From: Escherichia coli
GTDB taxonomy: Bacteria > Pseudomonadota > Gammaproteobacteria > Enterobacterales > Enterobacteriaceae
Reading direction: 5' to 3' (one strand)
NCBI RefSeq assembly: GCF_036507355.1
Contig: NZ_AP027877.1
DNA: 64,000 bases
Shown here piece by piece: positions 45,999 to 64,000 of this stretch (the stretch's first letter is position 1; every line of letters begins with the position of its first letter). A program made the position numbers and the translations under genes. A model generated the notes under the pieces. That model made no database searches and had not been told where the DNA came from. It saw nothing but the letters and a program-made list of their open reading frames with translations.

Positions 45999-46042
45999 AT
46001 TTCATGATGTCTCAAATCATCCCGTAAGAGCGCTGTCAAAAA

Positions 46043-46094
46043 TGAGTACATGAATGAGTACAACATTCTTCCATCTTCATTTTAAGTGAGTACA
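46043..46094 (+). promoter_or_regulatory. Three direct copies of TGAGTACA (46043, 46055, 46087) upstream of int; candidate integrase arm-type or regulatory sites
   Basis: Exact 8-mer repeated three times within 52 bp, 35-85 bp upstream of the int start codon. Confidence 0.35.
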
Positions 46095-46126
46095 ATAACG
46101 GTATAATAAATAAACAAGGCCCCGTT

Positions 46127-47320
46127 ATGCTCACTGATACACAATGCCGCACTGCCAAACCGAAAGAAAAACTCTATCGACTCAATGATTTCAACGGTCT
46201 CTACCTCGAAGTGAAACCCAATGGTAAAAAGGCTTGGCGTTATCGGTTTAAGCTCAACGGTAAATCCAGCATGTTTGCGCTAGGTGAGTACCCGACGGTC
46301 AAGCTTGCCGAGGCTCGAGAAAAATGCGAGCAAGCGCGAAAGCAGGTTGCGGAAGGAGTCAACCCAGCGCAAGCTCGTCAGTTAGATAAGATTCGTAAGG
46401 TTAACGACGCATCCAACACCTTTGAGCTGATCGCCAAAGAGTGGCTGCAGATGAAAGACTGGGCCGAAATTACCAAAACACGCCGACTGGATATGCTTGA
46501 ACGTGTGGTTTTCCCCTCAATCGGTAAGCTTCCAGTCAGAGAGATCACCCCACACCATATCCTTAAAATTCTTCAGGAAACTGCCAAACGAGGAGCACCG
46601 ACAGTTGCCGCAGAAGCCCGTCGCACCATTTCATCAGTTTTCGAGTTGGCTGTGGCAACGCTTAGAGCTGATAGCGATCCTGTCTGGCCTGTACGCAAGG
46701 CACTTCCGGCGAATAAGACACAGCACAAACAGGCATTGAATCCACAGCAAATCGGGAAGCTATTAAGCTGTTTTGATAACAGTCGCGGCTCATATCAGGT
46801 TAACTATTGCATGTGGCTAATGTGGTGGACGCTGGCGCGACCAGCCGAAGTCACCGAGGCAGAGTGGGCAGAGTTCGATCTTGGTAACGCACTGTGGACC
46901 ATTCCGGCAAGGCGTATGAAAGCTCGTAGGGAACATGTTATTCCCCTTCCTTCCCAAGCCGTCAACATGCTCAAAACACTACAAGGATTAACCGGGCATA
47001 GGCAGCATCTTTTTCCGGGCAGGGATAATCCGCTAGGCCCAATGACATCGCACTCTCTGCGTCAACTACTTAAAAGCCTCGGATGGAATGGCACTTATAG
47101 CCCCCATGCTACCAGAACTACAGGAAGTACGCGTTTAAACGAAATGGGCTATCGACCTGATGCTATTGAGGCCCAACTTGCGCACGCTGATACCAACAAT
47201 GTTCGTCGCACATACAACCATGCAACTTATCTTGATGAGCGAAAGGTTATGATGCAAGACTGGGCAGATAAACTTGAAGGATGGGTAGGAAGCACACACA
47301 GCAATATTGATGTTTCGTAA
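46127..47320 (+). CDS. int: P4-type tyrosine integrase (island integrase)
   Basis: 397-aa ORF with the N-terminal arm-binding-like region typical of P4-family integrases and a C-terminal catalytic region ...HSLRQLLKSLGWNGTYSPHATRTTGSTRLNEMGYRPDAIEAQLAHADTNNVRRTYNHATY (R..H..R..Y). Confidence 0.85.
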   Translation: MLTDTQCRTAKPKEKLYRLNDFNGLYLEVKPNGKKAWRYRFKLNGKSSMFALGEYPTVKLAEAREKCEQARKQVAEGVNPAQARQLDKIRKVNDASNTFELIAKEWLQMKDWAEITKTRRLDMLERVVFPSIGKLPVREITPHHILKILQETAKRGAPTVAAEARRTISSVFELAVATLRADSDPVWPVRKALPANKTQHKQALNPQQIGKLLSCFDNSRGSYQVNYCMWLMWWTLARPAEVTEAEWAEFDLGNALWTIPARRMKARREHVIPLPSQAVNMLKTLQGLTGHRQHLFPGRDNPLGPMTSHSLRQLLKSLGWNGTYSPHATRTTGSTRLNEMGYRPDAIEAQLAHADTNNVRRTYNHATYLDERKVMMQDWADKLEGWVGSTHSNIDVS

Positions 47321-47719
47321 GTCATGATACATTGGTGTGTTCATACTGATTATTAAAGATTATTTTCCACCACAATATAAAAACCACGCTTTAGCCTATA
47401 TATTAGTAACCATCTGATTTAACTAATAATGTTTGCTATACTGATCCTGCATTATACTCCCTCTGTTTTTCCATCCCTCTAATAACATAGGACATATCCA
47501 TGCGCTGATATCATGTATCCAGCAGTGAAGCCAGTATGAGAAAGACTCTGGCGAACGAGTTTTGGCTGATAAGCTGGGGATCGCTAGTTCTGATAAGATG
47601 GATGAAGCTGAACTTGTCCTGTTAGAACAACTCTACCAGTCCGTTTTTGAAGAACAGTTCCCGTAAAGACAGCTCAGCATAGCCATGCTAAAAAGCTGGC
47701 ATCCCCGCAGGGGTGGTAA

Positions 47720-49888
<2,169 letters not shown>

Positions 49889-49949
49889 CTAAGCATCACA
49901 GTGGCAGGTCGACAGGGACAAACCTGTGAGTCTGCAGGCTCGACGTTGT

Positions 49950-50290
49950 GACAGAAACAATCGCATCACACATCAACACCACAGCTTCCCGCTTCTGGTC
50001 TGTCGTCAATACTTTCGCCCAAGAACCACCTGAAGCGCCTGAAGCGCCTCCTTATCCGGCATGGCTTCAGCAAGCAGCTTCTTTGAGTCTGGCGTTCTCT
50101 TCCTCAAGCGACTCCAGGTGCTTAACCTCAAGCACCGCCATACTTCTTATGCTATGTGTAAAGAGTGGCATCGGAAATAGCGTGCTTGCAGCAGAGCTCA
50201 CGGGCAGAAACTCCAGCTTCTGCTTCACGGAGAACGCTGATTATCTGTTCGTCGGAAAAACGCTTCTTCATGGGAATCATATTCGGCGTC
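49950..50290 (-). pseudogene. IS3-family OrfA remnant (truncated, internal stop)
   Basis: Minus-strand translation from 50279 gives MIPMKKRFSDEQIISVLREAEAGVSARELCCKHAISDATLYT then a stop, with ...LKSLEEENARLKKLLAEAM... continuing out of frame; no cognate OrfB follows. Confidence 0.55.
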
Positions 50291-50450
50291 AGGGTCAATA
50301 TAAAGGCATTACTAGCATCGGGATGTACTAATCAACGGAGAGCAAGATCACATCCCTAACAGTATGACCAGATAAGCTATTCATAGTAAAAAAATATATC
50401 CACTAACCATCTAGAAGATAAGTCATGATTTTCACGGTAATGACTCCAAC

Positions 50451-50954
50451 TTATTGATAGTGTTTTATGTTCAGATAATGCCCGATGACTTTGTCATGCA
50501 GCTCCACCGATTTTGAGAACGACAGCGACTTCCGTCCCAGCCGTGCCAGGTGCTGCCTCAGATTCAGGTTATGCCGCTCAATTCGCTGCGTATATCGCTT
50601 GCTGATTACGTGCAGCTTTCCCTTCAGGCGGGATTCATACAGCGGCCAGCCATCCGTCATCCATATCACCACGTCAAAGGGTGACAGCAGGCTCATAAGA
50701 CGCCCCAGCGTCGCCATAGTGCGTTCACCGAATACGTGCGCAACAACCGTCTTCCGGAGCCTGTCATACGCGTAAAACAGCCAGCGCTGGCGCGATTTAG
50801 CCCCGACGTATCCCCACTGTTCGTCCATTTCCGCGCAGACGATGACGTCACTGCCCGGCTGTATGCGCGAGGTTACCGACTGCGGCCTGAGTTTTTTAAA
50901 TGGCGGAAAATCGTGTTGAGGCCAACGCCAATAATGCGTGCACTGGCGCGACAT
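50451..50954 (-). CDS. insB: IS1 transposase InsB (produced as InsAB fusion by frameshift)
   Basis: 167-aa [53 protein letters not shown]... Confidence 0.9.
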
Positions 50955-51148
50955 CCGACGCCATTCATGGCCATATCAATGATTTTCTGGTGCGTACCGG
51001 GTTGAGAAGCGGTGTAAGTGAACTGCAGTTGCCATGTTTTACGGCAGTGAGAGCAGAGATAGCGCTGATGTCCGGCAGTGCTTTTGCCGTTACGCACCAC
51101 CCCGTCAGTAGCTGAACAGGTGGGACAGCTGATAGAAACAGAAGCCAC
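50873..51148 (-). CDS. insA: IS1 protein InsA
   Basis: 91-aa [46 protein letters not shown]... Confidence 0.9.
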
Positions 51149-51504
51149 TGGAGCACCTCAAAAACACCATCATACACTAAATCAGTAAGTTGGCAGCATC
51201 ACCTAAGTCTTGAGCCATTATTTCTATAAAATACATGTTAAATCATATTAGAATAGTTTATACGATAATTCGCTTGAAGAAGAAAAACACTATTCTAATT
51301 CAAACATTTTATATTATCAAGAACCATGGTAATTACAGTTAATTTACAGTATCAGTGATGTGGTTTCCAAAAAAGTATGCCCAAACATTTAAATATATGC
51401 CTTCGATAAATGAACTTTAACTCATCAGAATGACTACCCATCAATACTATTGAGTATATGAAGACAATTCACAGTCCCATCTGGCGAATTTTTCAGATGG
51501 CGAG

Positions 51505-54500
51505 TTAAATATCTTCTGGTGATTCCCCCAGATACATCTTACGGTAATGATACACTTCAAAGAATTTCCCCTTGTCTTTGTAACTACTGATAAAGTAGCA
51601 ATGTGTTAAATACTTTAGCAGGATCTCATTACCTTCAGTTTTGTGAACTTTTGCTCGTTTGGTTTTATCCGCAATCAAATTATATTCTTCCGACACGAAG
51701 GCCATAAGCGCACGATTGATGTATTCAAAAGGCAGTTCTTCACACTCTAAAAGATGATTCAAAAACACAAGTCGAGTGTCATCTTCCGAAACATTAAGAA
51801 GGAGTGCTATACTGACTTTACTATTTAGGCTTATATGGTCGAAGAAACTATTGGTATAGTGCGGCCAGAGAACATTGATGATTGAAACTTTAGTCGTCAA
51901 CTCTATATCGTCATCATTGAGCACAAGCTCAATAAGTTCATTATCGAAATCTTCGTCATCTTGCAGATAAAACTCAATATTATTTTCAAAAACAGCAAGG
52001 TTGTTTCTAATCATAAGCGACAGACACTCATTGAGGCCCTTGCGACGTTGTCCCTCATAAATGCTGAGTACGTCTTCATAGAGCGCTTCTGACAGCAAAA
52101 CTCTGTTGCTCTCACAAAGTGCTTTAAATTTTGTCAGTGGCAGGTCACTGATTACCTTGTCGATACTTACAGGCAGCACGCTGATCAACTGTGCATATAA
52201 CGCGTCTGGCTTATCCGCTGCTGAAATGATGTGATTCACAACATTATCAATAGACTCCTCAGGAACACTGACCTTATGGCCTGAAAGCACCTCTGGATGG
52301 TGAGCAAAAAACGCCCACAATATCTCATCGTCGACATCGGTATACATGTAGTTAAATATGTTATCCCAGTTGGCAGCGACACGCCCATGTTTAAACAAGA
52401 GGTCATAAACAGTGAATGACGCACCCTCAACTACCGATAGCCTGATATTTTCAACTGTCGACAACTGCTGAACTTCAAAATCCATGTTTTCAATTATAAT
52501 TTCTTTGGAACGCTCAGTAGCGTCTGAATTAATTAGTGAAATAACGGATCCAACGCTTTCCTCAGAATGAATGAAATATTCCACAATAAACATCTCAAGG
52601 TTTGTATTTACAGCCTCAATTAAGCATGGGACTTTTTCACTCATAATTAAGGTATATGGATTGCGCGATAGTTCCTCAACATTCTTTCTGTTATTAGAGT
52701 ACGCATTAAACAGTGCAGTGAGGTTATTAATATTAAATACATACAGAAAATTCTCTGCGATAAACTTCACCAACGTACGTTCACTTTCATCGTTAGCTTC
52801 ATTGACGCTATCGAATACAATATTGAGCTCTTTTAATTTTATGCTGAATGACGCAATCTCATCGGGTCGTATGTATGTAAACAACGTAGTGTCTGTTTTT
52901 AATTCATGCAGATAATCCTGAACAGCACTTTGTCGGGTAATGTTTTCTATCAGACCAAAACGAAGTAATGACACAAATAACTGCTGATAAAAATCATCAT
53001 CAGAGTCAATGTCACGGTAAGTACTCATCGCCGCCATCAATTTACCCAATGTCTTTTCATCGCTTAAAATTAAATTAATTAAGTCATGATAGTCATCATT
53101 ACTAAATTCATAAAAATACGTCCGCATAGTGCGAATGATTAAGCCATGTGAGCAATAATTAAATAAATGAATAAAAACATCACGGGCAAAACCAGCTCGG
53201 CAGTTGATCAAAAAGCTAATTATATGCGGATGAAAAATCCCCTCGTAATATTTAAATGATAGCGACTCCATTTTATCTACAACATTGGAAACGTTATTCA
53301 GATGAATATCTTTTAACTCCTCAAAATTCACCTTAGCAGCGACCTTCTGGATATAAACATTATCTGATTTACTTAATGCACCTGCATGGAAGATAGAGCG
53401 ATATTGCATGTAATCCTGCTCAATATATCCATTTGACAACATGAAAAACAACAATTCCATATTGAAATTAATCGCTGAAGGCTTGGATGCATTTTTATTT
53501 CCCTTATCGTCAGTTGATGCAACATTAAGCAACCACTCACTCAATTTCGCTAAGGTTATTTTTTCACATAATTCATGAAGTGATAGGCCATTTCGTTGAT
53601 TAAGAACACGCTGTGTGTTTAAAATATTTTTAGATAATTGCTCAACGGTTTTTTGGTTCTTATCTAAAATAACTGGTGAGCGTTTGTTATATTCACGTAA
53701 ACTCTCAGCTCGCTTATTATGTGGAATTTGGAAGGTATCTTGATATTCATACCCGTTTCTTGAATATGTGATAGCTATTCCGGATGGAAGCTCTCTGTTC
53801 AGAAAATCACAAAACAATGATTCATCCCCACAAAGTTCAACAAAGCTCCAGCTACTCCCAACTTGCCCATACTTATTATGGCTTATATAAAACACTGTAT
53901 TCGATTCAATTTGTTCAGGAAGATAACGCCTTAGAATTTCAACCCTCAGATTTAAACTGGATGTTTGCAATTCCTTTTGTACTTTCACCAACTTTTCTTT
54001 CTGCTGAGAAATCTTTATTTCCAAATCTTTAAAATACACGTCATGTAGCGTTCTCTTAGAGTAAGCATTAACTATTCTGTATAAAAAACCATCCTGATTA
54101 TCAAGCAGAGTGAAATCTTTGGTACATAAATTTTTATACATTATCAAAGAAAATAACTTCACATCAGAAATCTCACCCGTAATTAATTTTTTAAAAATAT
54201 TAAATTCATTTATAACATTATTCATCACCCGCATATCAGTCAGGTAAAGGGATACTTTCTTGAAAAACTGCTCTTTATCTACCGAATTAAAGTTTATAAC
54301 TTTACTACTTAATATGTCATACGCATTCTCACTATCTACTGCAGGTATAATCGGCACAATAAAATCAAAAAATTTTGTTTGTGATTCAGCATCCTTTAAT
54401 AAATCCTCCCTGACTGCAAAAATAAATTTAATCGGTTTCTTTTCCAATAGTCTGGAATTGTTTATCACTTGATTTATTTCACGGAGCTTAATAAAAATAT

Positions 54501-55407
54501 GACCATTGTTTAAACGGTCTAAATCTTCAAATACGACAACTCTATACTTTGTTTTAAGGAAGAAGTAAACAATCTCATCAATATACAAATTTAGCAGAGA
54601 AGCTGTATTCTGTTTTTCCGCCGCAATTTCTGCCTTTAAGAGATTTACTTTATCAAGAGCAATTTTTCTGTCAAAAAATCCTATCCGATAAAAACGAGAC
54701 AGCAGATACCAACAAATGATAAATGATAGCGAACCGATACATCCCCAACGCCATACCGGATGTATCGCAATGAAATGACTCACCGCTGACGGTAATGAAA
54801 ACGTGTTGATAATTTTTTGAGGAAACAACAATGTAGTGACAACGATTGTCAGTATGAGAACAAAAAACAGCAAACAGGATGTTATTAGTATTTGCCCAAC
54901 ACTTCGGGTGTGAATGCGCTCTACCCGCGAATCTGGCAGCGTACCTTTATCCACTTTGTATAAAATCTGCTGTAATATGCTGTATTCAATGCTTTGTTCT
55001 TTTGATAAAGACTCGGAACTTTTTAGTGTCTCATCCGTTTCAAAGTTTGCCAGTGAGATAATCACGTGCTCATCCGCTGGTTTTAAACTTGTAAACCTGA
55101 GCCAATATTTCAGGCGGTGCCACAACCGCTTTCGCCCTTCAATTTTTTTAAGGTATGAGAGAATAACCGAGCTTTTACCCGCGCCATAGGACCCCGTGAT
55201 GGCGATGTTCTTCACATCATCCCGGCTGAGGGCATAATCCAACGCCTTAAAATAGGGTTGATATCCCTCTTTATCAGGATCGACAATCGGTGTTAGCGTT
55301 TGGAATTCCCTTTCCGTTCCTGAATTGTTTTCTGAAGTAACCTGAAGCCTTGCGACTGTTTTATGCAACCAGTCTGCGATCGTTTTCAACCCGAAAGACA
55401 GCGCCAT
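51505..55407 (-). CDS. Large (1300 aa) KAP/YobI-like P-loop NTPase with transmembrane hairpin inserted between Walker A and Walker B; long C-terminal region of unknown function. Candidate defence/conflict protein
   Basis: Walker A ITGSYGAGKSSV (about aa 70-81), two hydrophobic helices (about aa 171-195 ILITSCLLFFVLILTIVVTTLLF and 215-236 HPVWRWGCIGSLSFIICWYLL), Walker B-like VVVFEDLDR (about aa 290-298); Lys/Asn/Ile/Phe-rich composition; gene is conspicuously AT-rich versus flanks. Confidence 0.75.
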   Translation of the reverse strand: MALSFGLKTIADWLHKTVARLQVTSENNSGTEREFQTLTPIVDPDKEGYQPYFKALDYALSRDDVKNIAITGSYGAGKSSVILSYLKKIEGRKRLWHRLKYWLRFTSLKPADEHVIISLANFETDETLKSSESLSKEQSIEYSILQQILYKVDKGTLPDSRVERIHTRSVGQILITSCLLFFVLILTIVVTTLLFPQKIINTFSLPSAVSHFIAIHPVWRWGCIGSLSFIICWYLLSRFYRIGFFDRKIALDKVNLLKAEIAAEKQNTASLLNLYIDEIVYFFLKTKYRVVVFEDLDRLNNGHIFIKLREINQVINNSRLLEKKPIKFIFAVREDLLKDAESQTKFFDFIVPIIPAVDSENAYDILSSKVINFNSVDKEQFFKKVSLYLTDMRVMNNVINEFNIFKKLITGEISDVKLFSLIMYKNLCTKDFTLLDNQDGFLYRIVNAYSKRTLHDVYFKDLEIKISQQKEKLVKVQKELQTSSLNLRVEILRRYLPEQIESNTVFYISHNKYGQVGSSWSFVELCGDESLFCDFLNRELPSGIAITYSRNGYEYQDTFQIPHNKRAESLREYNKRSPVILDKNQKTVEQLSKNILNTQRVLNQRNGLSLHELCEKITLAKLSEWLLNVASTDDKGNKNASKPSAINFNMELLFFMLSNGYIEQDYMQYRSIFHAGALSKSDNVYIQKVAAKVNFEELKDIHLNNVSNVVDKMESLSFKYYEGIFHPHIISFLINCRAGFARDVFIHLFNYCSHGLIIRTMRTYFYEFSNDDYHDLINLILSDEKTLGKLMAAMSTYRDIDSDDDFYQQLFVSLLRFGLIENITRQSAVQDYLHELKTDTTLFTYIRPDEIASFSIKLKELNIVFDSVNEANDESERTLVKFIAENFLYVFNINNLTALFNAYSNNRKNVEELSRNPYTLIMSEKVPCLIEAVNTNLEMFIVEYFIHSEESVGSVISLINSDATERSKEIIIENMDFEVQQLSTVENIRLSVVEGASFTVYDLLFKHGRVAANWDNIFNYMYTDVDDEILWAFFAHHPEVLSGHKVSVPEESIDNVVNHIISAADKPDALYAQLISVLPVSIDKVISDLPLTKFKALCESNRVLLSEALYEDVLSIYEGQRRKGLNECLSLMIRNNLAVFENNIEFYLQDDEDFDNELIELVLNDDDIELTTKVSIINVLWPHYTNSFFDHISLNSKVSIALLLNVSEDDTRLVFLNHLLECEELPFEYINRALMAFVSEEYNLIADKTKRAKVHKTEGNEILLKYLTHCYFISSYKDKGKFFEVYHYRKMYLGESPEDI

Positions 55408-55668
55408 TGAGTGTCCTCACAATCACGAATATTAAATTCATAAATTGGAGACAATCCTAACATGAATCAAAAGAATCATCACACAATCATGTAGTTAAAA
55501 GAACAAGCTGGAACCTGATTTTTTATAGCATTTTCACGCAGCACAGTTTTTGCCCACGATAGTATCACCGGATTACGCTCACTCAAGATCAAGCTTATCG
55601 TACACCCGCACTACATATCAGCTACACCCATCACCGTAACCGAGTCCCATCGATATTCACTGACTAGT

Positions 55669-55713
55669 GTTGATACACCCATATAGATATATATACCCAT
55701 TGAGTGTATCAAC
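55669..55713. promoter_or_regulatory. Inverted repeat GTTGATACAC-N25-GTGTATCAAC upstream of the NTPase gene
   Basis: Perfect 10-bp arms at 55669-55678 and 55704-55713 flanking an AT-rich spacer (atatagatatatat); lies between the putative rep gene stop and the NTPase start. Confidence 0.35.
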
Positions 55714-55765
55714 TGATGGATTACATGCGTCTAAACGCTTATAGACATCCTGTCTTATGGACAAA

Positions 55766-56638
55766 CTACTTACGGGTTCTCACCCCAGAGGTAAATGTCA
55801 GTCCAGTAAACCCCATCTCATCCTGCTTACATAACGCCCGTGCCAACAGAACAGGCGGCAGCCTGTGTTTGGGGGTACGGCGTTTTCCTGCCTCATCAGG
55901 ATAAGGTCTTACTTCCAGCCACATCCCCTTGAAGCAGTATGTTACCTGCTCGTCAAAATCCTTCAGCTTCTGGCTTTTCATCGGCCGACTGATTATCCCC
56001 GCTCTGGCCCGCATATTTTTATCCCTCTTCATCGCCTTTCTTAGCGTTTTGAGCGCCCCCGGCTCTCTCGGCATCAGTAGATGCAGGTGAGGCATCCAGC
56101 GCTGGATATCGGTGTGAAAATCCAACTCGTAGTCACCCACTATTTTGCCCGTAAATCCGGCTCTTTTTATCATCTTGTAGACCCGCTCCCGGAACTTCTT
56201 ATGATCCCAGCGGCTGATCTCGTCTTCTTTCAGCATGGCATCGTAATAAACCAGCGTAACCACTCTGTACGCGCCCTTAGAGGCCCTCAGTGGGAGCAAT
56301 TCAGTCAGCTTACGTAACCTGTGCAGGCGGAAACACTGTGGGCAGGCCGCGCTACCACATTGATGTTCTGGCATACAGCCCTCCAGTTTTCTCTTTAACC
56401 GAAACATCCGCCCTCGCCACTTTTTGTGTGCTTTTCTGACTTCTTTGCTCTCATCCTGATTATCATTCCTGTTCTGCCGCACAGCCTTTCGTATTGCTTT
56501 TATGCGGTACAGGCGTTCCTTCTCCATTTGCTCCCGGGTTTCAAAACCCGGAATGGTAAGAGCTAACTTTTCCAGTTGGCGCTCTTCTTCTGTCAGTGAT
56601 GCATACACTGCTCGCGCAATACGGTTTGTACCAAACAT
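55766..56638 (-). CDS. Putative HUH-type replication initiation protein (inovirus Gp2-like), island-encoded
   Basis: Contains HLHLL (His-hydrophobic-His) motif in WMPHLHLLMPREP and a Cys cluster CGSAACPQC; start placed at Met 56638 directly after the alpA stop (track ORF overlaps alpA by 50 bp). Confidence 0.45.
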   Translation of the reverse strand: MFGTNRIARAVYASLTEEERQLEKLALTIPGFETREQMEKERLYRIKAIRKAVRQNRNDNQDESKEVRKAHKKWRGRMFRLKRKLEGCMPEHQCGSAACPQCFRLHRLRKLTELLPLRASKGAYRVVTLVYYDAMLKEDEISRWDHKKFRERVYKMIKRAGFTGKIVGDYELDFHTDIQRWMPHLHLLMPREPGALKTLRKAMKRDKNMRARAGIISRPMKSQKLKDFDEQVTYCFKGMWLEVRPYPDEAGKRRTPKHRLPPVLLARALCKQDEMGFTGLTFTSGVRTRK

Positions 56639-56639
56639 A

Positions 56640-56834
56640 TCAGCAACCTCCTCTGGTCCCACGGGAAGCAATCCACTCATTGACTTCACTTTCCAGCCAG
56701 GCCACCGCTCGTCCTCCTGTCAGGGATTTTTGGCGTGGGAAAGTCCCTTTTTCAATCATCCGGTACAGTGTGGCGCGGCTCACCGCACAGCGTTCCAGCA
56801 CAGCCTGAATTTTGACCAGTTTCATATCATTCAT
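56640..56834 (-). CDS. alpA: AlpA-family phage/island transcriptional regulator (MerR-like HTH)
   Basis: 64-aa ORF MNDMKLVKIQAVLERCAVSRATLYRMIEKGTFPRQKSLTGGRAVAWLESEVNEWIASR, the AlpA signature. Confidence 0.8.
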   Translation of the reverse strand: MNDMKLVKIQAVLERCAVSRATLYRMIEKGTFPRQKSLTGGRAVAWLESEVNEWIASRGTRGGC

Positions 56835-56941
56835 GTTTCAACGTTCCTCAACAAGGAAAGGGAACGCGCTATTAACAAGATCCAAAATCGGGGCTCTGTG
56901 AGGGGGGGGTTGGGACGTCTACTGGCTCGTTTCATACCTAT

Positions 56942-57547
56942 TTGTCGGGCCGACACTTTATGTCCATTGTCGGTCCGACAAAAGAGTCGTTAGAATGCTC
57001 AAAAATGAATGCATCAACGGGAGTTCGCGTGACAGGAAAAAGGCAGACCAGCCGCCAGAAACGGTCAGATAAAATGAGGAAAAATGCAGGATTGACTCAA
57101 GTGAAGGTTTACCTGGATGAAACCACTCTGCAGTTACTGGGGTTACTTCAGGAAAATATGTCAGAAGGTGATATGAAGGGTGATGAGGTCAATATGTTCC
57201 GTAGCATGGCTATAACGGCCAGTATCCACACCCTGGCAAAAGAACGACTGGGGGAACAAGAAGTATCGCATATGGTGATCAAGAACCTCGGTGCTGACTG
57301 CCCATCCGACGAAGCGACAGAAAACCCACGTAAGTTTCTTCTCCGGACGATGATTAACCACCTGTATGATAATGGCACACACAATCCGCACCGCCGTCGA
57401 TTGTCAGAAGTGGCTGGAATTATGAATGAAAGCAGTTTCAGGAACCCGAAGAACAAAAAAGGGGGATGGAGTGAAAATGATATCAGTCACTATGTCAGCA
57501 ATGACATAAAACTGGAAAATGATACCTCGGTTGATGTACCGGGCTAA
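56942..57547 (+). CDS. Hypothetical protein divergent from alpA; possible ribbon-helix-helix regulator (start uncertain)
   Basis: Internal segment MRKNAGLTQVKVYLDETTLQLLGLL resembles an RHH beta-strand/helix; real start may be one of the internal Met codons (about 57005 or 57074). Confidence 0.35.
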   Translation: MSGRHFMSIVGPTKESLECSKMNASTGVRVTGKRQTSRQKRSDKMRKNAGLTQVKVYLDETTLQLLGLLQENMSEGDMKGDEVNMFRSMAITASIHTLAKERLGEQEVSHMVIKNLGADCPSDEATENPRKFLLRTMINHLYDNGTHNPHRRRLSEVAGIMNESSFRNPKNKKGGWSENDISHYVSNDIKLENDTSVDVPG

Positions 57548-57760
57548 GCAAATCTATACACCAATATATTTATCTCTGGAATACCCTGGTCGGGGAGCAC
57601 GAATTAGTTATTCATCAGGGGTGGTGAGTTGGTCGTGCTTTCCCGGAAGGCAGGTGCGCCAACGCCAGTACTTGGTATACCTGTGGGCTATCAAAAATAG
57701 TCTCTGGCCCCGTTTGATGGTTTTAACCAACAGGCTGCGGTGGTCATCCCCCATGAAAGC

Positions 57761-58708
57761 TTACCAGCAACATAGCGCCCTGGAGGCTCTGTCTACAGCC
57801 TGCCTGCCCCTACAGTCATAGCGTGTGGTCGTGGATATATCCGCATGTCCTGCCAACTGGCGCACCACATTAATGTCCACTCCCTGCTCCAGCAGGCGGG
57901 TGATGAATGTCCGTCGCAGGTCGTGGGGGGTGAAGTAATCCACTTCTGCAGCTTCGCGTAACTGCGCCAACAGCCCTGTAAGACCCGTGGTGGTAAGCCG
58001 TTGTCGTCCTGGCTGCCCCGCACGACTGATGCGACTGAACAGCGGCCCGGCATGATACCCCCGGAGCTTCAGCCATCGCCGCAGTTGCATGCAGACTTTT
58101 CCGGAAAGGTGGATTTCCCGGATTTTGCGCCCCTTTCCCTGCCTGACAATCACGATCCCCGTGGCTACATCTATATCTCCCACGTCCAGGGCTACCAGTT
58201 CGGCGGCACGCAGACCTGCGCCACACAGAAGCAGCAAAATAGCCCGATTACGCTGGCAACGTACAGCGTCAGCCTTTCCGGCCGCCGCCAGCATGGCCCG
58301 AATTTCGGTCCTGTCCAACGCCCTGCCCAAGCGGGTGGCACTGCCAGTGACACGCCTGACTGAACGTATGCGCGTCAGTCTGTCAGCATCCAGAATCCCC
58401 ATACTGAAAGCCGCTCCGGCAACCGATTTCAGCGCCGACAGCGCCATGTTCACCGTGGCAACAGCATAGCCCTCATCCAGCAGCACCGAGCGTACCCGCA
58501 TCACGCTCGTGTAGTCCAACGTATGCCAGGGGTAGGTGTCGGGCTTCGCCCCCGGACGGAGGATACCGGCACATCGTCGGAGTAAGCTTTGCATCCCCCT
58601 GCGCCCGGCTGGCGTCAGGCTTGCCAGCCACAGCAATGCTGGGTTGATGGAGAGGGCATTTTGCGGGTGGACAGATGCCGCGCGTTTACCATTGCGGCTC
58701 GTGGTCAT
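57761..58708 (-). CDS. Tyrosine-type site-specific recombinase (XerC/XerD-like), GC-rich
   Basis: 315-aa ORF with catalytic region ...FTPHDLRRTFITRLLEQGVDINVVRQLAGHADISTTTRYD (R..H..R..Y) and LCGAGLRAAELVALDVGDID box; visibly GC-richer than neighbouring island genes. Confidence 0.7.
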   Translation of the reverse strand: MTTSRNGKRAASVHPQNALSINPALLWLASLTPAGRRGMQSLLRRCAGILRPGAKPDTYPWHTLDYTSVMRVRSVLLDEGYAVATVNMALSALKSVAGAAFSMGILDADRLTRIRSVRRVTGSATRLGRALDRTEIRAMLAAAGKADAVRCQRNRAILLLLCGAGLRAAELVALDVGDIDVATGIVIVRQGKGRKIREIHLSGKVCMQLRRWLKLRGYHAGPLFSRISRAGQPGRQRLTTTGLTGLLAQLREAAEVDYFTPHDLRRTFITRLLEQGVDINVVRQLAGHADISTTTRYDCRGRQAVDRASRALCCW

Positions 58709-58784
58709 AATATCATCCTTATTATTGATAGTGGGATATCCCGGTCAGGTCTGACCGGGAGTGAGGGTTAATATGTCTTCGTAG

Positions 58785-59405
58785 TCAGCGTTTTTTCACA
58801 CCATAATGCTGAAGGTAGCGATTCAGGCTCCGACCAGCGCCAGTCTCAAAATTCCATGTCCGCCAGATAAGCTGCCCCACTGTGTCGCGTATCACCAACC
58901 GGAAGTGGGTATGCAGGTCATCCTCAATGGCGACATTTTTATACGTCGCAACCACAGCCTCTGCTTCCAAACGAGTAAACGAATCTGGGGGCAGTTGTGG
59001 CGTCTGTATTGTGGGCTCTGGTGCTGCGCGGTCAGGACGTGAATGCCGTCCCTGTGTGATGTGACTGACGGCTTGGTAACTGCTCTGCCTCAGAAGTCCG
59101 GTGGTCTTCCTTGCCCGGAGAATATCAATGGAGGTAATGTGCGGAGACTGGGGGATAAAGCTGACATTACCCTGGTCTGTACGTACCAGGTCGTACTTTT
59201 CAACAATAGAATTCAGGGCCTCCGTCAGTGATATCTCTGCATCAATGTATGCCTGAATGGCACCTTTCCCGCTAAACGGCGTGTCGCTGAGAGTGAGTCC
59301 GTAGTGCTTCTCCAGCAAGTAAGCCAGCAGAGTGTGCCAGACATCAGCAGGGGACAGGCAACACGATAGTGTCCGATTTGGTGAGACCGGTTGTTTTTTC
59401 ATCAC
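58785..59405 (-). CDS. CbtA/YeeV-family type IV toxin homolog with about 80-aa C-terminal extension
   Basis: First ~125 aa align by eye to CbtA (..[35 protein letters not shown]..); ORF continues to 206 aa. Confidence 0.65.
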
Positions 59406-59511
59406 TGTATTCTCGCGGATAACATTGAAAAAGACGCGCGAACGTGAACATCAATTGAACGTCCGCACTTATTGGAATCCGTCGGCCAGACGGGCAAAAA
59501 GTGACTTCCAT

Positions 59512-59895
59512 CTACTGTCCCGAAGACCGGGAAGCCATGGGATAAATGGCGATATATACGTAGCCACAGGAGCCGAGCGTGTTAGCCTCGCAGATCAGCC
59601 CTTCTACCTGTAGCGTGATCCCCTTCGCCCTGCGCGGGTCCAGTTCACCGGACAGCAGAATGCTTTCCATCTGCCTCATGAGCAGCGGAAATATCTGGTC
59701 CAGATGGCGTGCGTCTCTGTCGCTGAACGTACCGGTGAATTCAGCCCGGTCAGCCAGAAAATGCAGGCAGCCGCCCTCCTGCACCAGACGCGCCCCGAAG
59801 CATGGCGTCACGTTGCACTGTAGCCCCCACAGATCTGTGGGTGGCGTATCGTAGTCTTTCAGATCTGTCATGTCAGGTGTCCTCAAAAGTCGCAC
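59512..59895 (-). CDS. CbeA/YeeU-family antitoxin homolog
   Basis: 127-aa ORF with ..LWGLQCNVTPCFGARLVQEGGCLHFLADRA..HLDQIFPLLMRQ..SGELDPRR.. matching the CbeA family pattern; immediately upstream of the toxin. Confidence 0.7.
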   Translation of the reverse strand: MRLLRTPDMTDLKDYDTPPTDLWGLQCNVTPCFGARLVQEGGCLHFLADRAEFTGTFSDRDARHLDQIFPLLMRQMESILLSGELDPRRAKGITLQVEGLICEANTLGSCGYVYIAIYPMASRSSGQ

Positions 59896-59931
59896 TGCCA
59901 GTGCATCAATCTGGCAATGCTGGGTAGTTCT

Positions 59932-60369
59932 TCAGCTTTCCCACAGCACGCGCGTGGTGTAGACCCCGCTGGCGTAGTAGCTCAGGAAGTTACGCTCCCA
60001 CAGGCTGTAAAGCGCCCTTACTTCCGTTAGAGGCAAATCCCCCGTACAGTAGTGCCAGACATAGCCCTGCGACCAACTGATATCGATGATTTTCTCCAGC
60101 TCCGGGTAGACCGTGCCGACATAGCCAAAATCGGTGGCGTAGTCCAGGCACCACTCATCGCCCTGATGAATTAGCCGGATCTCCACCGGGTGATAACCCC
60201 CCCGCTCCACACTGTAGTCCGGGTCCCGGAAGTTGAATGTCACGGCGGTGATCCGATGTTTATGGGCGGGTATTTCGCCCGCCTCTGCCATCAGCAGTTC
60301 GTACAGTTGCAGACTGACAGGCAGCATAAAGCCTGCCGGCTGAATAACGGCATTGATGTTCAAGAGCAA
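59932..60369 (-). CDS. Hypothetical protein between radC-like gene and antitoxin
   Basis: 145-aa ORF, no motif recognised; occupies the position of the small DUF987 gene in CP4-like modules but is about twice as long. Confidence 0.4.
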   Translation of the reverse strand: MLLNINAVIQPAGFMLPVSLQLYELLMAEAGEIPAHKHRITAVTFNFRDPDYSVERGGYHPVEIRLIHQGDEWCLDYATDFGYVGTVYPELEKIIDISWSQGYVWHYCTGDLPLTEVRALYSLWERNFLSYYASGVYTTRVLWES

Positions 60370-60454
60370 AACCTCAGTGTTTACAGTTTAAAAAAACGTG
60401 AAGGGATAAAGCGGACGTGTCTTAGCGTGGATAATGTGTATTAAACCAGGTAAC

Positions 60455-60943
60455 TCACAGTAGCCCGTGTTCAGCGAAAGACCAGGCTTTGTCGCCTCCC
60501 ACAATGAGATGGTCGGTCACGCGGATATCCAGCAACGCCAGTGCGTCTGTAATTTTTTGGGTAATGAGTTTATCGGCCTGGCTCGGTTCAGGCTCACCAC
60601 TGGGATGGTTATGCACCAGTATCACAGCAGCAGCGTTGTGCGTCAGTGCCAAGCTGACTATTTCGCGGGGATAAACCATCGTCTGGCTCAGCGTACCGAT
60701 AAACAATGTCTGGTAGCCGAGAATATGATGTTGCTGTGAAAGCATTATCACACCAAAAGATTCACGGTTTTCAAGCGCCAGCTTCATCACCAGCCACTGA
60801 CGTACATCTTCAGATGAGGTGATTTTTCGGCGATTGCGAAACTGGCGGGTCAGCAATGAATGGGCAAACCGGATAATCTGTTCGCGGGTAACCGGCTCCA
60901 GCGTCTGATAATGACCGCTACGATCACTTGCGATAAACGTCAT
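60455..60943 (-). CDS. RadC-like JAB/MPN-domain protein (YeeS/YfjY-like)
   Basis: JAMM motif HNHPSGEPEPSQAD and C-terminal DHLIVGGDKAWSFAEHGLL; start set to Met 60943 to avoid overlap with upstream ORF (alternative 60997). Confidence 0.7.
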   Translation of the reverse strand: MTFIASDRSGHYQTLEPVTREQIIRFAHSLLTRQFRNRRKITSSEDVRQWLVMKLALENRESFGVIMLSQQHHILGYQTLFIGTLSQTMVYPREIVSLALTHNAAAVILVHNHPSGEPEPSQADKLITQKITDALALLDIRVTDHLIVGGDKAWSFAEHGLL

Positions 60944-60965
60944 GATGTACTCCTTACCTTTTAGT

Positions 60966-61589
60966 TCAGAATTCACGTTCAACAAAGTAAATGGCATCCG
61001 GCAGCAACGTATGGCGCTTCAGCTCAGGTTGTACTGAAAACGTGTCCTTTCGCTGGCTGCGTATCCCCAGGCTATCAAACAAAAACAACCGGGTAGCATC
61101 GGTACGAACCACCACTGACCAGTGCCATGTGGTCCCCATAATCACCACGCGCTGCGCCTGATTCTCCGGTGAAGCCAGCCAGTCGCTGATATCATGAAAT
61201 ATTCGGTGAGTTCTCAAGGTTCGATAACGGAAGGGAGTATGAAAATAGAGGGGATAATGTTGGGCGTAATGCCCTCTCAGCAGAACATCTGCTATCAGGT
61301 GGTCCATCTGCTCTTCATCCAGGCCAAGCGTCAGGAGATCAAATAAGTCCCATCGTCGCTTATAGCTGCTTAGCAGGCGGTACATTAATTTTTCCCGCCT
61401 TACCCTGCCGTCATAGAGGTAACTCAGGGTATTAATCAGGCTGTAGATGCCACACAAATAGTCATGCTGTCCCTGGCGGGACGCATGAACGTCTCGAGGA
61501 AGTGTCATTGTAAATTTCCGGGATAAGTGATGGCTGTGAACCAGCCGGAATGGTGGTGATACAGTGGCTGAGCGCATGATGGCAGCCAC
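60966..61589 (-). CDS. Hypothetical protein with conserved-looking Cys and His (possible cysteine-hydrolase fold)
   Basis: 207-aa ORF; LCGIYSL near N-terminus and HWSVVV near C-terminus; sits where CP4-like elements usually carry an anti-restriction gene but does not resemble ArdB/KlcA by eye. Confidence 0.4.
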   Translation of the reverse strand: MAAIMRSATVSPPFRLVHSHHLSRKFTMTLPRDVHASRQGQHDYLCGIYSLINTLSYLYDGRVRREKLMYRLLSSYKRRWDLFDLLTLGLDEEQMDHLIADVLLRGHYAQHYPLYFHTPFRYRTLRTHRIFHDISDWLASPENQAQRVVIMGTTWHWSVVVRTDATRLFLFDSLGIRSQRKDTFSVQPELKRHTLLPDAIYFVEREF

Positions 61590-61665
61590 TGTATAAATTA
61601 TAACAAAATCAATACATTAATGCAAGTGATTCTTGTTATCACTTATCCAGCGACTCCTTCACTTG

Positions 61666-62046
61666 TTACTGGTTAACGTCTCCTTCAGACAGGTCCCTTG
61701 CAACCTGAGCCAGAGCCTGCTGCAAAAGTTTATCCCTAGAGGCCGGTTTCATGGTACGGAACAACTGTATCCACAGGTTAAGCTGCTCGTCTGCTGAAGT
61801 ATCTGCCGCATCCCGCTCACTTTTCAACGCCATCCCTGCCGCGCTGATATGGTACAGAAACCCCTTCCCACTGGTGCGTTTGCGGCGGATTTCCGGATGT
61901 AGGGCTGTGAGCTTTTCCAGACGTAGCCGCGCCCATTTCGCTGTGCCCGGCATTCCTTCCATTCCGGCAAACTGCTCTGCTGTAAGCCACTCCCCACTGT
62001 CCGTCATTCCGGCATCACAGGGCTCAGTCATCTGTTCACTGCTCAT
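61666..62046 (-). CDS. Hypothetical acidic protein, possible DNA-binding regulator
   Basis: 126-aa ORF MSSEQMTEPCDAGMTDSGEWLTAEQFAGMEGMPGTAKWARLRLEKL...; the left end of IS5 abuts its 5' region. Confidence 0.4.
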   Translation of the reverse strand: MSSEQMTEPCDAGMTDSGEWLTAEQFAGMEGMPGTAKWARLRLEKLTALHPEIRRKRTSGKGFLYHISAAGMALKSERDAADTSADEQLNLWIQLFRTMKPASRDKLLQQALAQVARDLSEGDVNQ

Positions 62047-62077
62047 AAAATTTCACCTCTTATCAAAGCGTTAGTTA

Positions 62078-63272
<1,195 letters not shown>

Positions 63273-63416
63273 CTAAATGAGCGCAAATAACCACAAAAGG
63301 AACTTGATAACTTCCCTTTGTTTGCTTTTAATATCTCCGGTACTAACAACCCGGAGTGAATACATTGAGTAACTCAACAGATTCGCAAAAAAAAGCGAAG
63401 TAAGGGAAGTGCTGTT

Positions 63417-63635
63417 AACTGGCACCGGGCAGATATTGTCGCCGCCCTGCATAAGCGGGGACTTTCCCTGTCAGCTCTCTCCCGGCAACACGGGCTGGCT
63501 TCCAGGACGCTGAATAACGCTTTTGAGCGCCACTATCCGCGGGCGGAAAAGATTATTGCGGAGGCACTGAACACTACGCCCGAAACCATCTGGCCTGAGC
63601 GCTATGCAGGTAGGTCTGTCAAAAACGAAAGCTGA
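63417..63635 (+). CDS. Ner/Nlp-like DNA-binding protein, lacking an in-frame ATG start (possibly truncated)
   Basis: Frame encodes NWHRADIVAALHKRGLSLSALSRQHGLASRTLNNAFERHYPRAEKIIAEALNTTPETIWPERYAGRSVKNES, resembling Ner-like regulators; no ATG between the upstream stop (63366-63368) and this segment. Confidence 0.45.
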   Translation, partial: NWHRADIVAALHKRGLSLSALSRQHGLASRTLNNAFERHYPRAEKIIAEALNTTPETIWPERYAGRSVKNES

Positions 63636-63647
63636 AGAAAGCATGTT

Positions 63648-64000
63648 ATGTCGACCACCATTACTGAAGTAACGGAATGCTTTGAGTACCTTTTTAGTTC
63701 CCTTTACCGGAAAGCATTTGTCAAAACCCTGCGCCTTAACGAATGCAGTGAACGGGAGTTGCTACCGCTGGTACGCTGCTACCTGCTGGGTTGGTTTGCC
63801 GACAGCGTCTCACCGGAAGTCCGGGGGAAACTGCCCGGCAGTATCTCCGGGCATGGCTATATTGATTTCGTCATTGACGATGTGGCAGTGGAGTTCGCCG
63901 TCCGTAAGCCAGGAGCCGCCCGTTCTGCACTGTCAGCCTCAGTCAACAGCACGGAGGTAAAGAAACTGATGAAGTATGACGGCAAAGCCCTGCTGGTACT
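63648..64000 (+). CDS. Hypothetical protein, 5' portion (ORF runs off window end)
   Basis: ATG at 63648 opens MSTTITEVTECFEYLFSSLYRKAFVKTLRLNECSERELLPLVRCYLLGWFADSVSPEV... with no stop before position 64000. Confidence 0.4.
   Translation, partial: MSTTITEVTECFEYLFSSLYRKAFVKTLRLNECSERELLPLVRCYLLGWFADSVSPEVRGKLPGSISGHGYIDFVIDDVAVEFAVRKPGAARSALSASVNSTEVKKLMKYDGKALLV

What the first reader, a model, noticed from the sequence alone, without database searches (positions are those of the whole stretch)
55408..55765. Perfect 10-bp inverted repeat with AT-rich spacer in the NTPase upstream region
GTTGATACAC-N25-GTGTATCAAC lies about 260-300 bp upstream of the NTPase start codon and just past the rep-like gene stop. 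No T-run follows, so it is unlikely to be an intrinsic terminator. It could be an operator for a dimeric regulator (AlpA or the RHH-like protein) or a recombination/origin-like site.
Basis: seen in the sequence. Interest (0 to 1): 0.3.

Follow-up and report, generated by a model that had tools for sequence, protein, structure and literature searches.

The report
Likely rolling-circle origin in a defence island
The inverted repeat is real and strongly conserved, and is most likely the start site for rolling-circle copying of a mobile E. coli defence island by the replication protein encoded next to it, not a switch for the downstream NTPase gene.

Summary
The repeat exists exactly as described (window 55669-55713, GTTGATACAC-N25-GTGTATCAAC). 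A perfect 10-bp inverted repeat is not special on its own: the window has 13 such loci. Its conservation is what matters. The 52-nt block is 81-88% identical between E. coli and Aeromonas, against 42-46% at third codon positions of the adjacent gene. It always lies about 50 nt after that gene's stop, whatever cargo follows (YobI NTPase, type I R-M, Lamassu-like, GmrSD).

The adjacent 290-aa "hypothetical" protein is a distant homologue of pC194 RepA, a rolling-circle initiator of the HUH family (hhalign 96%, E 1.8e-9), with all catalytic motifs invariant. Both arms carry TTGATA, the core of the nick site used by that family. TGTCCATAAG direct repeats (iterons) precede the repeat. A motif, AACACTAsTCAG, overlaps and follows it, and is shared with relatives only about 30% identical. 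All 45 nt form a hairpin on the rep-sense strand, and every substitution but one preserves pairing.

My best reading (about 0.6) is the nick-and-melt core of a double-strand replication origin. The operator idea is not supported; a better operator candidate lies at 56942-56980. Nicking and replication are inferred, not shown. Interest is moderate.

The parts
55669..55713 (-). 45-nt quasi-palindrome. It has perfect 10-bp arms (55669-55678 and 55704-55713) and an AT-rich centre. On the rep-sense (minus) strand it folds into a 19-20 bp hairpin. Proposed nick/melting element of the origin.
   Evidence: Conservation. Pairing counts.
55660..55671 (-). AACACTAGTCAG motif. It overlaps the last 3 nt of the stem and runs 9 nt beyond it. 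It is conserved family-wide and is the proposed Rep recognition or nick-proximal sequence. Conservation ends 9-60 nt beyond the repeat, depending on the lineage.
   Evidence: The motif lies 60-100 nt after the rep stop in L012, L014, L135, L136, L138 and L152, whose proteins are about 30% identical or less, and in all close relatives.
55738..55763 (-). Two direct repeats (iterons), TGTCCATAAG and TGTCTATAAG, 16 nt apart, immediately after the rep stop codon. Proposed Rep 'bind' locus.
   Evidence: They are invariant in all 7 lineages, with three copies in some Aeromonas. Further copies lie beyond the repeat in Aeromonas, including four in tandem in L148.
55766..56638 (-). 290-aa rolling-circle initiator of the HUH type, a distant homologue of pC194 RepA (Pfam Rep_1). 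Annotated as a hypothetical protein.
56640..56834 (-). AlpA-family excisionase/regulator. Its stop abuts the rep start, so the two are probably one operon.
56942..56980 (.). Two 14-bp palindromes, TTGTCGGGCCGACA and TTGTCGGTCCGACA, 25 bp apart, between alpA and the divergent gene. The better operator candidate of this module.
   Evidence: The equivalent pair in Aeromonas caviae is at L140 5613-5660.
56963..57547 (+). Divergent gene of about 165-195 aa with no family match. Possible regulator.
57761..58708 (-). Inner tyrosine recombinase, XerC/D-like, 315 aa.
51505..55407 (-). Cargo in this strain: YobI-family P-loop NTPase, 1300 aa. Not part of the conserved core.
46127..47320 (+). Outer P4-type integrase next to ychF. 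It bounds the cargo region on the far side.
   Evidence: The same layout in Aeromonas.
55600..55631 (-). Two further copies of ATGGGTGTA-like words (GCGGGTGTAC and ATGGGTGTAG on the minus strand). They resemble the two copies inside the hairpin but lie in the cargo-specific segment. Their significance is unknown.
   Evidence: families D2 and D8.

Best explanation
The repeat is the core of a double-strand origin (dso) of rolling-circle replication, belonging to the HUH initiator encoded immediately upstream.

Proposed sequence of events:
1. The island is excised as a circle by its integrase with AlpA.
2. Rep binds the TGTCCATAAG repeats and the AACACTAsTCAG motif.
3. Supercoiling extrudes or melts the AT-rich 45-nt palindrome, so that the rep-sense strand forms a hairpin.
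4. Rep's tyrosine (Y234) nicks that strand in or beside the hairpin. Candidate positions are the pC194-type TTG/ATA in the arm, the AT-rich centre, or the AACACT flank.
5. The 3'-OH primes leading-strand synthesis, amplifying the excised island and possibly producing concatemers.

Shown here: the sequence anatomy, its conservation, the strand-asymmetric pairing, and the homology of the protein. Inferred: binding, nicking, the nick position, excision and replication.
For: 1. The neighbouring protein is a Rep.
- hhalign of the family profile against pC194 RepA gives 96.3% probability, E 1.8e-9. It aligns CxSxxCPxC, the (F)LTLT-type motif I, the metal-binding Glu and PHxHhL. Against pUB110 RepU the E-value is 6.4e-5.
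- 15 of 54 distant members hit Pfam Rep_1 (best E-value 4.8e-7) and 8 hit REP_ORF2-G2P.
- The invariant residues are the four Cys, T128, E171/D173/H175, H184/H186, Y234 and K237, in Rep order with the Tyr after the HUH motif.

2. The non-coding block is under strong selection.
- The 52-nt block is 81-88% identical between E. coli and Aeromonas, against 42-46% at rep third codon positions. E. coli versus Buttiauxella is 100% against 65%.
- The 25 nt between the direct repeats and the inverted repeat are not conserved, which serves as an internal control.

3. Its position is fixed relative to rep and independent of cargo.

4. Both arms contain TTGATA. CTTGATA is the Rep_1 nick-site consensus (PMC10378824). 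I confirmed it in pC194 and pUB110 and in phiX174, CAACTTG/ATATTAATAACACTAT.

5. AACACTAsTCAG recurs 60-100 nt after the rep stop in six distant loci. An AACACT word also lies in the origin regions of phiX174 and M13.

6. On the rep-sense strand 99.2% of pair cells are standard pairs. Seven of 19 pairs vary. Five change on one side only while staying paired, mostly through G.T pairs. One is compensatory (C-G to A-T). One has a single unpaired cell. Only 11 of 500 shuffles reach the observed value. Those G.T pairs would be A.C mismatches on the other strand, which points to a single-stranded hairpin.

7. The layout of direct repeats flanking an AT-rich palindrome matches the known bind-plus-nic organisation of a dso (PMC5703833, PMC5714925).

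8. There are precedents for integrative elements with an RCR Rep: pSAM2-type AICEs (PMC3218068), and Pseudomonas islands with alpA plus an 'inovirus Gp2-like' gene whose excised form is circular or concatemeric (PMC12595487).
Against: - There is no experimental evidence of nicking, excision or replication.
- The TTGATA on the rep-sense strand becomes TTGGTA in 3 of 7 lineages, and distant relatives have only xTGATx there. The nick position is therefore unresolved.
- The inverted repeat itself is not conserved in distant relatives; only AACACT is.
- Distant relatives pair the Rep with a DUF927 helicase and GATC-type direct repeats. This island family has lost both, so the module could be partly vestigial.
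- No homologue is the sole Rep of a small plasmid or phage.
- Only 7 distinct sequences support the pairing statistics, and they are phylogenetically related.
- No separate single-strand origin was identified.
Confidence: 0.6

Rival explanations
1. Operator for a dimeric regulator (AlpA or the divergent protein) controlling the downstream NTPase gene.
For: The perfect dyad symmetry and the position upstream of the NTPase gene fit. A palindrome conserved at the sequence level is what a dimer-binding site looks like.
Against: - The downstream gene is different in every lineage and is sometimes in reverse orientation, while the repeat is unchanged.
- A 25-nt spacer (19 nt with the extended arms) is long for a helix-turn-helix dimer site.
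- The substitutions are strand-asymmetric (G.T), which duplex binding does not explain.
- No promoter-like site lies nearby.
- Much better operator candidates sit in the alpA/divergent-gene promoter region.
Confidence: 0.05
2. Recombination site at the core/cargo border. Either the inner tyrosine recombinase uses it, or Rep-mediated strand transfer acts there, so that defence cargo is captured or swapped at this point.
For: - Conservation ends 9 nt (Buttiauxella versus E. coli), 18 nt (between the two E. coli types) or about 60 nt (Aeromonas) beyond the repeat, and unrelated cargo follows.
- The arms begin GTT and end AAC, faintly like integron R'/R'' boxes.
- In pC194-family plasmids a resistance cassette (qacC) sits between the conserved leading-strand and lagging-strand replication elements (PMC5703833).
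Against: - The breakpoints are not at one fixed nucleotide.
- No second copy of the site flanks the cargo.
- The spacer is far longer than the 6-8 bp of tyrosine-recombinase core sites.
- GTTGATA misses the integron GTTRRRY consensus at two positions.
- The recombinase gene is 2 kb away, beyond three other genes.
- A sharp border is also expected simply where selection on the core ends.
Confidence: 0.1
3. RNA element: a hairpin in the 3' untranslated region of the alpA-rep transcript, acting as a stabiliser, a processing site or an atypical terminator.
For: The hairpin is favoured on the rep-sense strand and tolerates G.U-type changes. It lies 53 nt after the stop codon.
Against: - There is no U-run and the stem is AT-rich, so it does not fit an intrinsic terminator.
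- There is no Rfam match.
- 12 of 19 pairs, together with the loop and the flanks, are conserved as sequence rather than only as structure.
- This reading does not explain the flanking direct repeats or the AACACT motif shared with relatives that lack the hairpin.
Confidence: 0.08
4. Another single-strand or cis site of the same element: a single-strand origin for lagging-strand priming, or a packaging or transfer signal used by a helper phage or conjugative element.
For: The strand-specific hairpin is what single-strand origins and oriT sites look like. Related Pseudomonas islands are transduced as satellites (PMC12595487).
Against: - At 45 nt it is short for a single-strand origin.
- The protein has Rep topology, not relaxase topology: the catalytic Tyr follows the HUH motif.
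- No packaging genes are present in the island.
- The Rep_1 nick word in the arms and the adjacent direct repeats point to the double-strand origin.
Confidence: 0.12

Closest known systems
Double-strand origins of pC194/pUB110-family (Pfam Rep_1) rolling-circle plasmids, and of phiX174
   Same: - The initiator is homologous.
- A TTGATA word matches the CTTG/ATA nick core (PMC10378824).
- The nick word sits in a palindromic, AT-rich context next to putative initiator-binding repeats.
- As in pUB110, a copy of the nick word is on the rep-sense strand.
   Different: - The site lies after rep, not before it.
- The palindrome is much longer (45 nt) and carries the nick-like word in both arms.
- The replicon is a chromosomal integrative island in Gammaproteobacteria, not a small Gram-positive plasmid or a phage.
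- The Rep is too divergent to hit Pfam Rep_1 directly.
f1/M13 plus-strand origin (gpII)
   Same: Both have a hairpin with an AT-rich centre, followed on the same strand by a sequence containing ACAACACT. M13 reads GGAACAACACTCAACC. Some family members hit the G2P Pfam family.
   Different: The resemblance is an 8-nt word plus the layout, and could be chance. The gpII nick sequence TTCTTT/AATA is absent. The proteins are not demonstrably close.
pMV158 origin (separate nic and bind loci)
   Same: It also has a two-part origin: a hairpin carrying the nick site plus a set of direct repeats bound by Rep at a distance (PMC5703833, PMC1851628). RepB is the top structural match.
   Different: It belongs to a different Rep family (Rep_2), has a different nick sequence, and has three 11-bp repeats 84 bp away.
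Integrative elements that replicate by rolling circle after excision: pSAM2-type AICEs (int-xis-repSA), and Pseudomonas tmRNA islands with alpA plus an 'inovirus Gp2-like' gene
   Same: Both combine an integrase, an excisionase and an HUH Rep in a chromosomal island. The Pseudomonas islands also carry RadC and defence cargo, and excise as circles or concatemers (PMC3218068, PMC12595487).
   Different: No origin has been defined for the Pseudomonas islands. I did not test whether their Gp2-like protein is homologous to this Rep. AICEs are actinobacterial and self-transmissible.
Gammaproteobacterial pipolins
   Same: They share core content: two tyrosine recombinases, an excisionase and DUF2787. 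They also share the role of exchangeable defence platform (PMC11551731).
   Different: No piPolB gene was seen in the parts of these islands I read. The Rep-plus-repeat module is not described for pipolins.

Membership tests
Rolling-circle double-strand origin (Rep_1/pC194 type) | A cognate HUH initiator is encoded next to the site | tested here: met
Rolling-circle double-strand origin (Rep_1/pC194 type) | Nick-site word CTTG/ATA | tested here: inconclusive
   GTTGATA (6 of 7 positions) is present in both arms. The copy on the plus strand is invariant. The rep-sense copy is TTGGTA in 3 of 7 lineages. Distant relatives show only xTGATx.
Rolling-circle double-strand origin (Rep_1/pC194 type) | A palindrome or AT-rich region able to expose the nick site as single strand | tested here: met
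   The 45-nt hairpin has dG -9.6 kcal/mol and z -3.5. 99.2% of pair cells are kept across the lineages.
Rolling-circle double-strand origin (Rep_1/pC194 type) | Adjacent initiator-binding repeats | tested here: inconclusive
   Conserved TGTCCATAAG repeats are present. Binding cannot be tested with these tools.
Rolling-circle double-strand origin (Rep_1/pC194 type) | Rep-dependent nicking and replication, with single-stranded intermediates | not testable with these tools
   This needs biochemistry or in vivo assays.
Intrinsic terminator | A GC-rich stem, a short loop and a following T/U-run | tested here: not met
   One search finds none. The stem is AT-rich and no T-run follows.
Operator of the downstream (NTPase) gene | The site co-occurs with, and is positioned relative to, the regulated promoter | tested here: not met
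   The same site precedes unrelated cargo in every lineage. No promoter-like site is present.
Tyrosine-recombinase core site / integron attC | Inverted arms around a 6-8 bp spacer (core site), or R''/R' boxes RYYYAAC...GTTRRRY with a copy at each cassette end | tested here: not met
   The spacer is 19-25 nt. GTTGATA misses the consensus at 2 positions. There is only a single copy in the window.
oriT of a conjugative relaxase | A relaxase with its catalytic Tyr N-terminal to the His triad, and an inverted repeat followed by nic about 8 nt to its 3' side | tested here: inconclusive
   The protein has Rep order, with YxxK after the HUH motif, which argues against a classical relaxase. The repeat plus a conserved 9-nt 3' flank fits the DNA side.
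Known RNA families (Rfam) | A match at or above the gathering score | tested here: not met
   The only hit was a chance snoRNA match at E 0.63, located elsewhere in the region.

The most novel reading that the evidence does not exclude
The hairpin and the AACACT site may be more than an origin. They could be the point where the HUH Rep starts and ends strand displacement, so that initiation on one island and termination on another (or on foreign DNA) swaps whatever lies beyond the nick. That would make the site the mechanistic cause of the sharp border between the conserved core and the variable defence cargo. It would be a Rep-driven cargo-exchange platform for defence genes, comparable to the cassette position between replication elements in pC194-family plasmids.
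Probability: 0.12. Interest if true: 0.65.

Novelty: new member of a known kind. Interest (0 to 1): 0.4.

Why it matters
If this reading is right, three things follow.

- **A large unannotated protein family gets a function and a testable DNA site.** The profile search returned 1271 cluster representatives. Members sit next to AlpA in chromosomal islands of Enterobacterales, Aeromonas and, mostly, unidentified metagenome sequences. They would be rolling-circle initiators.
- **These defence islands would have a life cycle.** They carry YobI, DarTG, type I R-M, Lamassu-like, GmrSD or RADAR systems. They would be replicating elements that amplify after excision, which bears on how defence systems spread. 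For example, concatemers could be packaged by helper phages, as reported for related Pseudomonas islands.
- **It corrects an annotation habit.** The conserved repeat upstream of a defence gene belongs to the mobile core, not to the regulation of that defence gene.

Tried and rejected
- **Family scans.** Direct scans of the 290-aa protein against Pfam, PHROGs and NCBIfam gave no meaningful hit. A profile search against PDB sequences gave none.
- **Collecting related loci.**
  - The genome-contig scan returned one locus.
Four resembled the repeat. The one I read (L021) lies inside a phage structural gene, so I treated them as coincidence.
  - The metagenome pattern scan gave only 4 loci.
  - tblastn against plasmids found only large records, and against phages nothing, so there is no autonomous replicon with this Rep.
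- **Second copy of the site.** I searched the window for another copy of the repeat, of AACACTAGTCAG and of the direct-repeat unit, as possible cassette ends or a terminator of replication. None was found.
- **Terminator, promoter and Rfam readings** were checked and rejected.
- **Integron-like and Xer-like readings** were considered and rejected on spacer length, consensus mismatch and single-copy status.
- **Island ends.** I could not define the att sites of the island.

Full report
**Observation**

The window matches E. coli ET881 at 100% identity over the 18 kb compared (window 46000-64000), next to ychF. GTTGATACAC-N25-GTGTATCAAC occurs once, at 55669-55713.

All local genes are on the minus strand:
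- YobI-family NTPase, 51505-55407
- a 290-aa hypothetical protein, 55766-56638
- AlpA, 56640-56834
- an XerC/D-like recombinase, 57761-58708

A gene of unknown function runs divergently at 56963-57547. The spacer is 72% A+T and no T-run follows.

A perfect 10-bp inverted repeat is weak evidence in itself. The window has 13 such loci (23 overlapping hits) with spacers of 30 nt or less, against about 2 hits in shuffles, and most look like terminators. The arms extend to 13 nt with one mismatch. The whole 45 nt folds as a 19-20 bp hairpin on the minus strand (dG -9.6 kcal/mol, z -3.5) and less well on the plus strand (-7.7).

**Context**

The segment occurs in 30 of 5426 complete E. coli genomes. 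It belongs to a conserved island core, in this order:
1. outer P4-type integrase
2. variable cargo
3. the repeat
4. the 290-aa gene
5. alpA
6. the divergent gene
7. inner recombinase
8. DUF905, a truncated cbtA and yeeU (enterobacteria only)
9. DUF2787
10. RadC, followed by an HTH gene

The cargo differs between islands:

| Host / locus | Cargo |
|---|---|
| E. coli A19 | YobI with DarTG and an exonuclease |
| E. coli EC476 | type I restriction-modification |
| Aeromonas veronii | a Lamassu-like set |
| A. dhakensis | AAA_21/AAA_15 genes in the opposite orientation |
| A. caviae | GmrSD |
| Buttiauxella | an unknown 514-aa protein |

**Conservation**

I retrieved the loci through the protein, so the sample is unbiased with respect to the repeat. 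In all of them (two E. coli types, Buttiauxella and four Aeromonas species) the repeat is present at the same place.

The 52-nt block is 81-88% identical between the enterobacterial sequences (two E. coli types and Buttiauxella) and Aeromonas. The protein is about 64% identical and third codon positions are 41-46% identical. E. coli versus Buttiauxella is 100% against 65%. Within the same intergenic region, the roughly 25 nt between the direct repeats and the inverted repeat are poorly conserved, which is a useful internal control.

The conserved elements are:
- two or three direct repeats (iterons), TGTCCATAAG, right after the stop codon
- the palindrome
- AACACT immediately following it

The right arm GTGTATCAAC is invariant. 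The left arm has A-to-G changes at two positions.

Conservation ends 9 nt beyond the repeat (Buttiauxella versus E. coli), 18 nt (between the two E. coli types) or about 60 nt (Aeromonas). In Aeromonas a further TGTCCATAAG-type repeat lies beyond the palindrome, and metagenome locus L148 has four in tandem.

**Pairing**

On the rep-sense strand, 99.2% of pair cells across seven distinct sequences are standard pairs. Seven of 19 pairs vary:
- five change on one side only while staying paired, mostly through G.T pairs
- one shows a compensatory C-G to A-T change
- one has a single unpaired cell

Only 11 of 500 shuffles reach the observed values, and slid registers collapse to 25-54%. The G.T pairs would be A.C mismatches on the other strand. 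The pattern therefore favours a hairpin formed by one strand, as DNA or RNA, over a purely duplex protein site. The sample is small and phylogenetically related, so this evidence is moderate.

**The neighbouring protein**

The protein itself has no direct family hit. Its family is large: 1271 cluster representatives at E of 0.001 or better.

The invariant or near-invariant residues are:
- a C-x5-C-x4-C-x2-C cluster
- T128 in a vvTLvY strand
- E171/D173/H175
- H184-x-H186
- Y234-x-x-K237

This is the motif order of rolling-circle Rep proteins, with the tyrosine after the HUH motif.

Fifteen of 54 distant members hit Pfam Rep_1 (best E-value 4.8e-7) and eight hit REP_ORF2-G2P. A profile of the C-terminal domain aligns to pC194 RepA with 96.3% probability (E 1.8e-9). 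The alignment runs through CxxxxCPxC, FLTLT, the metal-binding Glu and PHFHVL. Against pUB110 RepU the E-value is 6.4e-5.

**The DNA compared with known origins**

Rep_1 initiators nick within CTTG/ATA (PMC10378824). I confirmed that word in three origins:
- pC194: TTATCTTGATAATAAG
- pUB110: TTATCTTGATACATATAGAAATA
- phiX174: CAACTTG/ATATTAATAACACTATAG, with the annotated origin at 4306

Both arms of the repeat read GTTGATAC. The plus-strand reading, GTTGATACACCCATATAGATATA, resembles pUB110's CTTGATACATATAGAAATA.

Relatives only about 30% identical have the gene order AlpA, Rep, DUF927 helicase. They lack the palindrome but carry AACACTA(C/G/T)TCAG, or AACACTGC, 60-100 nt after the rep stop in six of seven loci. 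An xTGATx word usually lies 10-23 nt upstream of it, and GATC-type direct repeats lie downstream. This layout is close to that of the compact phiX174 origin. M13 also has ACAACACT in its origin region.

These word-level resemblances are suggestive, not proof. The nick position remains open for two reasons: the rep-sense TTGATA is TTGGTA in three lineages, and only AACACT is family-wide.

**Interpretation**

The most economical reading is a two-part double-strand origin. The direct repeats and AACACT would bind Rep, and the AT-rich palindrome would be the nick-and-melt element. The origin would act after the island is excised as a circle.

This matches the general description of RCR origins (PMC5703833, PMC5714925). 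There are precedents in pSAM2-type integrative elements (PMC3218068). There are also Pseudomonas islands that carry alpA, RadC, an 'inovirus Gp2-like' gene and defence cargo. These excise as circles or concatemers and are transduced by a jumbo phage (PMC12595487). Gammaproteobacterial pipolins share part of the core: two recombinases, an excisionase and DUF2787 (PMC11551731).

I give this reading about 0.6, and about 0.7 for the broader statement that the repeat is a cis site of the HUH Rep.

**Rivals**

- **NTPase operator.** Contradicted by the independence from cargo, the long spacer, the strand asymmetry and the absence of a promoter. A pair of 14-bp palindromes at 56942-56980, conserved in Aeromonas, is the better operator candidate.
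- **Recombination or cargo-capture site.** Suggested by the sharp core/cargo border. However, the junctions are not at one nucleotide, there is no second copy, and the spacer and consensus do not fit tyrosine-recombinase or attC sites.
- **RNA hairpin in the 3' untranslated region.** Fits the strand bias. It does not fit the lack of a U-run, the sequence-level conservation, the direct repeats or the motif shared with relatives that lack the hairpin.
- **Single-strand origin, packaging signal or oriT.** Cannot be excluded. The protein's Rep-type topology argues against a classical relaxase.

**Limits**

Nothing here demonstrates nicking, excision or replication. This island family lacks the DUF927 helicase and GATC repeats of its distant relatives. 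No homologue is the sole Rep of a plasmid or phage. Fold matches are modest.

**Verdict**

It is a new member of a known kind: a rolling-circle origin with a divergent Rep_1-like initiator, found in chromosomal defence islands. Interest is moderate.

Noticed in passing
window 56942-56980: Two 14-bp palindromes, TTGTCGGGCCGACA and TTGTCGGTCCGACA, lie 25 bp apart between alpA and the divergent gene. They are conserved in Aeromonas caviae (L140 5613-5660). They are the likely operators of the module's regulator. They overlap the annotated start of the divergent gene, so that start is probably too far upstream.
   Followed up: partly
L004 9990-10010 (E. coli KFu019) and L147: A fragment of an IS3-family element abuts the site 4 nt after the palindrome (CAACACTA|AATACATT...). 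It cuts the AACACTAGTCAG motif and replaces the cargo side.
   Followed up: partly
L138 3354 and 5866 (Serratia-type relative): There are two direct copies of the motif: AACACTATTCAG after rep, and AACACTACTCAG about 2.5 kb further on. They bracket the DUF927 helicase gene and one other gene. They might be an initiation/termination pair.
   Followed up: no
L012 2990-3040; L014 2840-2875; L135 1090-1130; L152 5975-6010: Distant relatives have tandem repeats containing GATC (for example GATCTCTC x4 and GGTGATCC x3-4) between the AACACT motif and the DUF927 helicase gene. This looks like a second, iteron-type origin element, and it is missing from the E. coli/Aeromonas island family.
   Followed up: no
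L148 (metagenome, Aeromonas-like): Four tandem CTGTCCATA units lie about 60 nt beyond the palindrome, in addition to the three repeats before it. Direct repeats therefore flank the AT-rich palindrome on both sides.
   Followed up: partly
window 47880-51150, compared with L003 10034-13792: In this strain IS21-family and IS1 remnants occupy the place where other strains carry a 3'-5' exonuclease and a DarT/DarG-like pair next to YobI. In strain ET826 an IS1 also disrupts the YobI gene (L001).
   Followed up: no
window 58785-59405, and the same place in L002-L005: The cbtA toxin gene next to yeeU is truncated at its C-terminus in all three E. coli island types annotated (L001-L005), directly beside the DUF905 gene and the inner recombinase. 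Aeromonas islands lack yeeU/cbtA altogether. The toxin-antitoxin pair therefore looks like an old, decayed insertion in the enterobacterial lineage.
   Followed up: no
L140 1-46 and 12149-12867 (Aeromonas caviae): The Aeromonas island also lies beside ychF, as in E. coli. There, however, the outer integrase faces an array of tRNA genes with a CAU anticodon. The same chromosomal neighbourhood is used in two orders of bacteria, with the island in the opposite orientation.
   Followed up: no
window 55600-55631 and 55673-55700: Four copies of an ATGGGTRTA-like word occur on the minus strand. Two are inside the hairpin and two lie 40-70 nt beyond it in the cargo-specific segment. They loosely resemble the reverse complement of the TGTCCATAAG repeat.
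   Followed up: no
window 62147-63126: An IS5-like ISKpn26 element is inserted near the HTH regulator gene, which is annotated as frameshifted in this strain. The gene is intact in strain A19, which lacks the insertion (L003 24774-25043).
   Followed up: no
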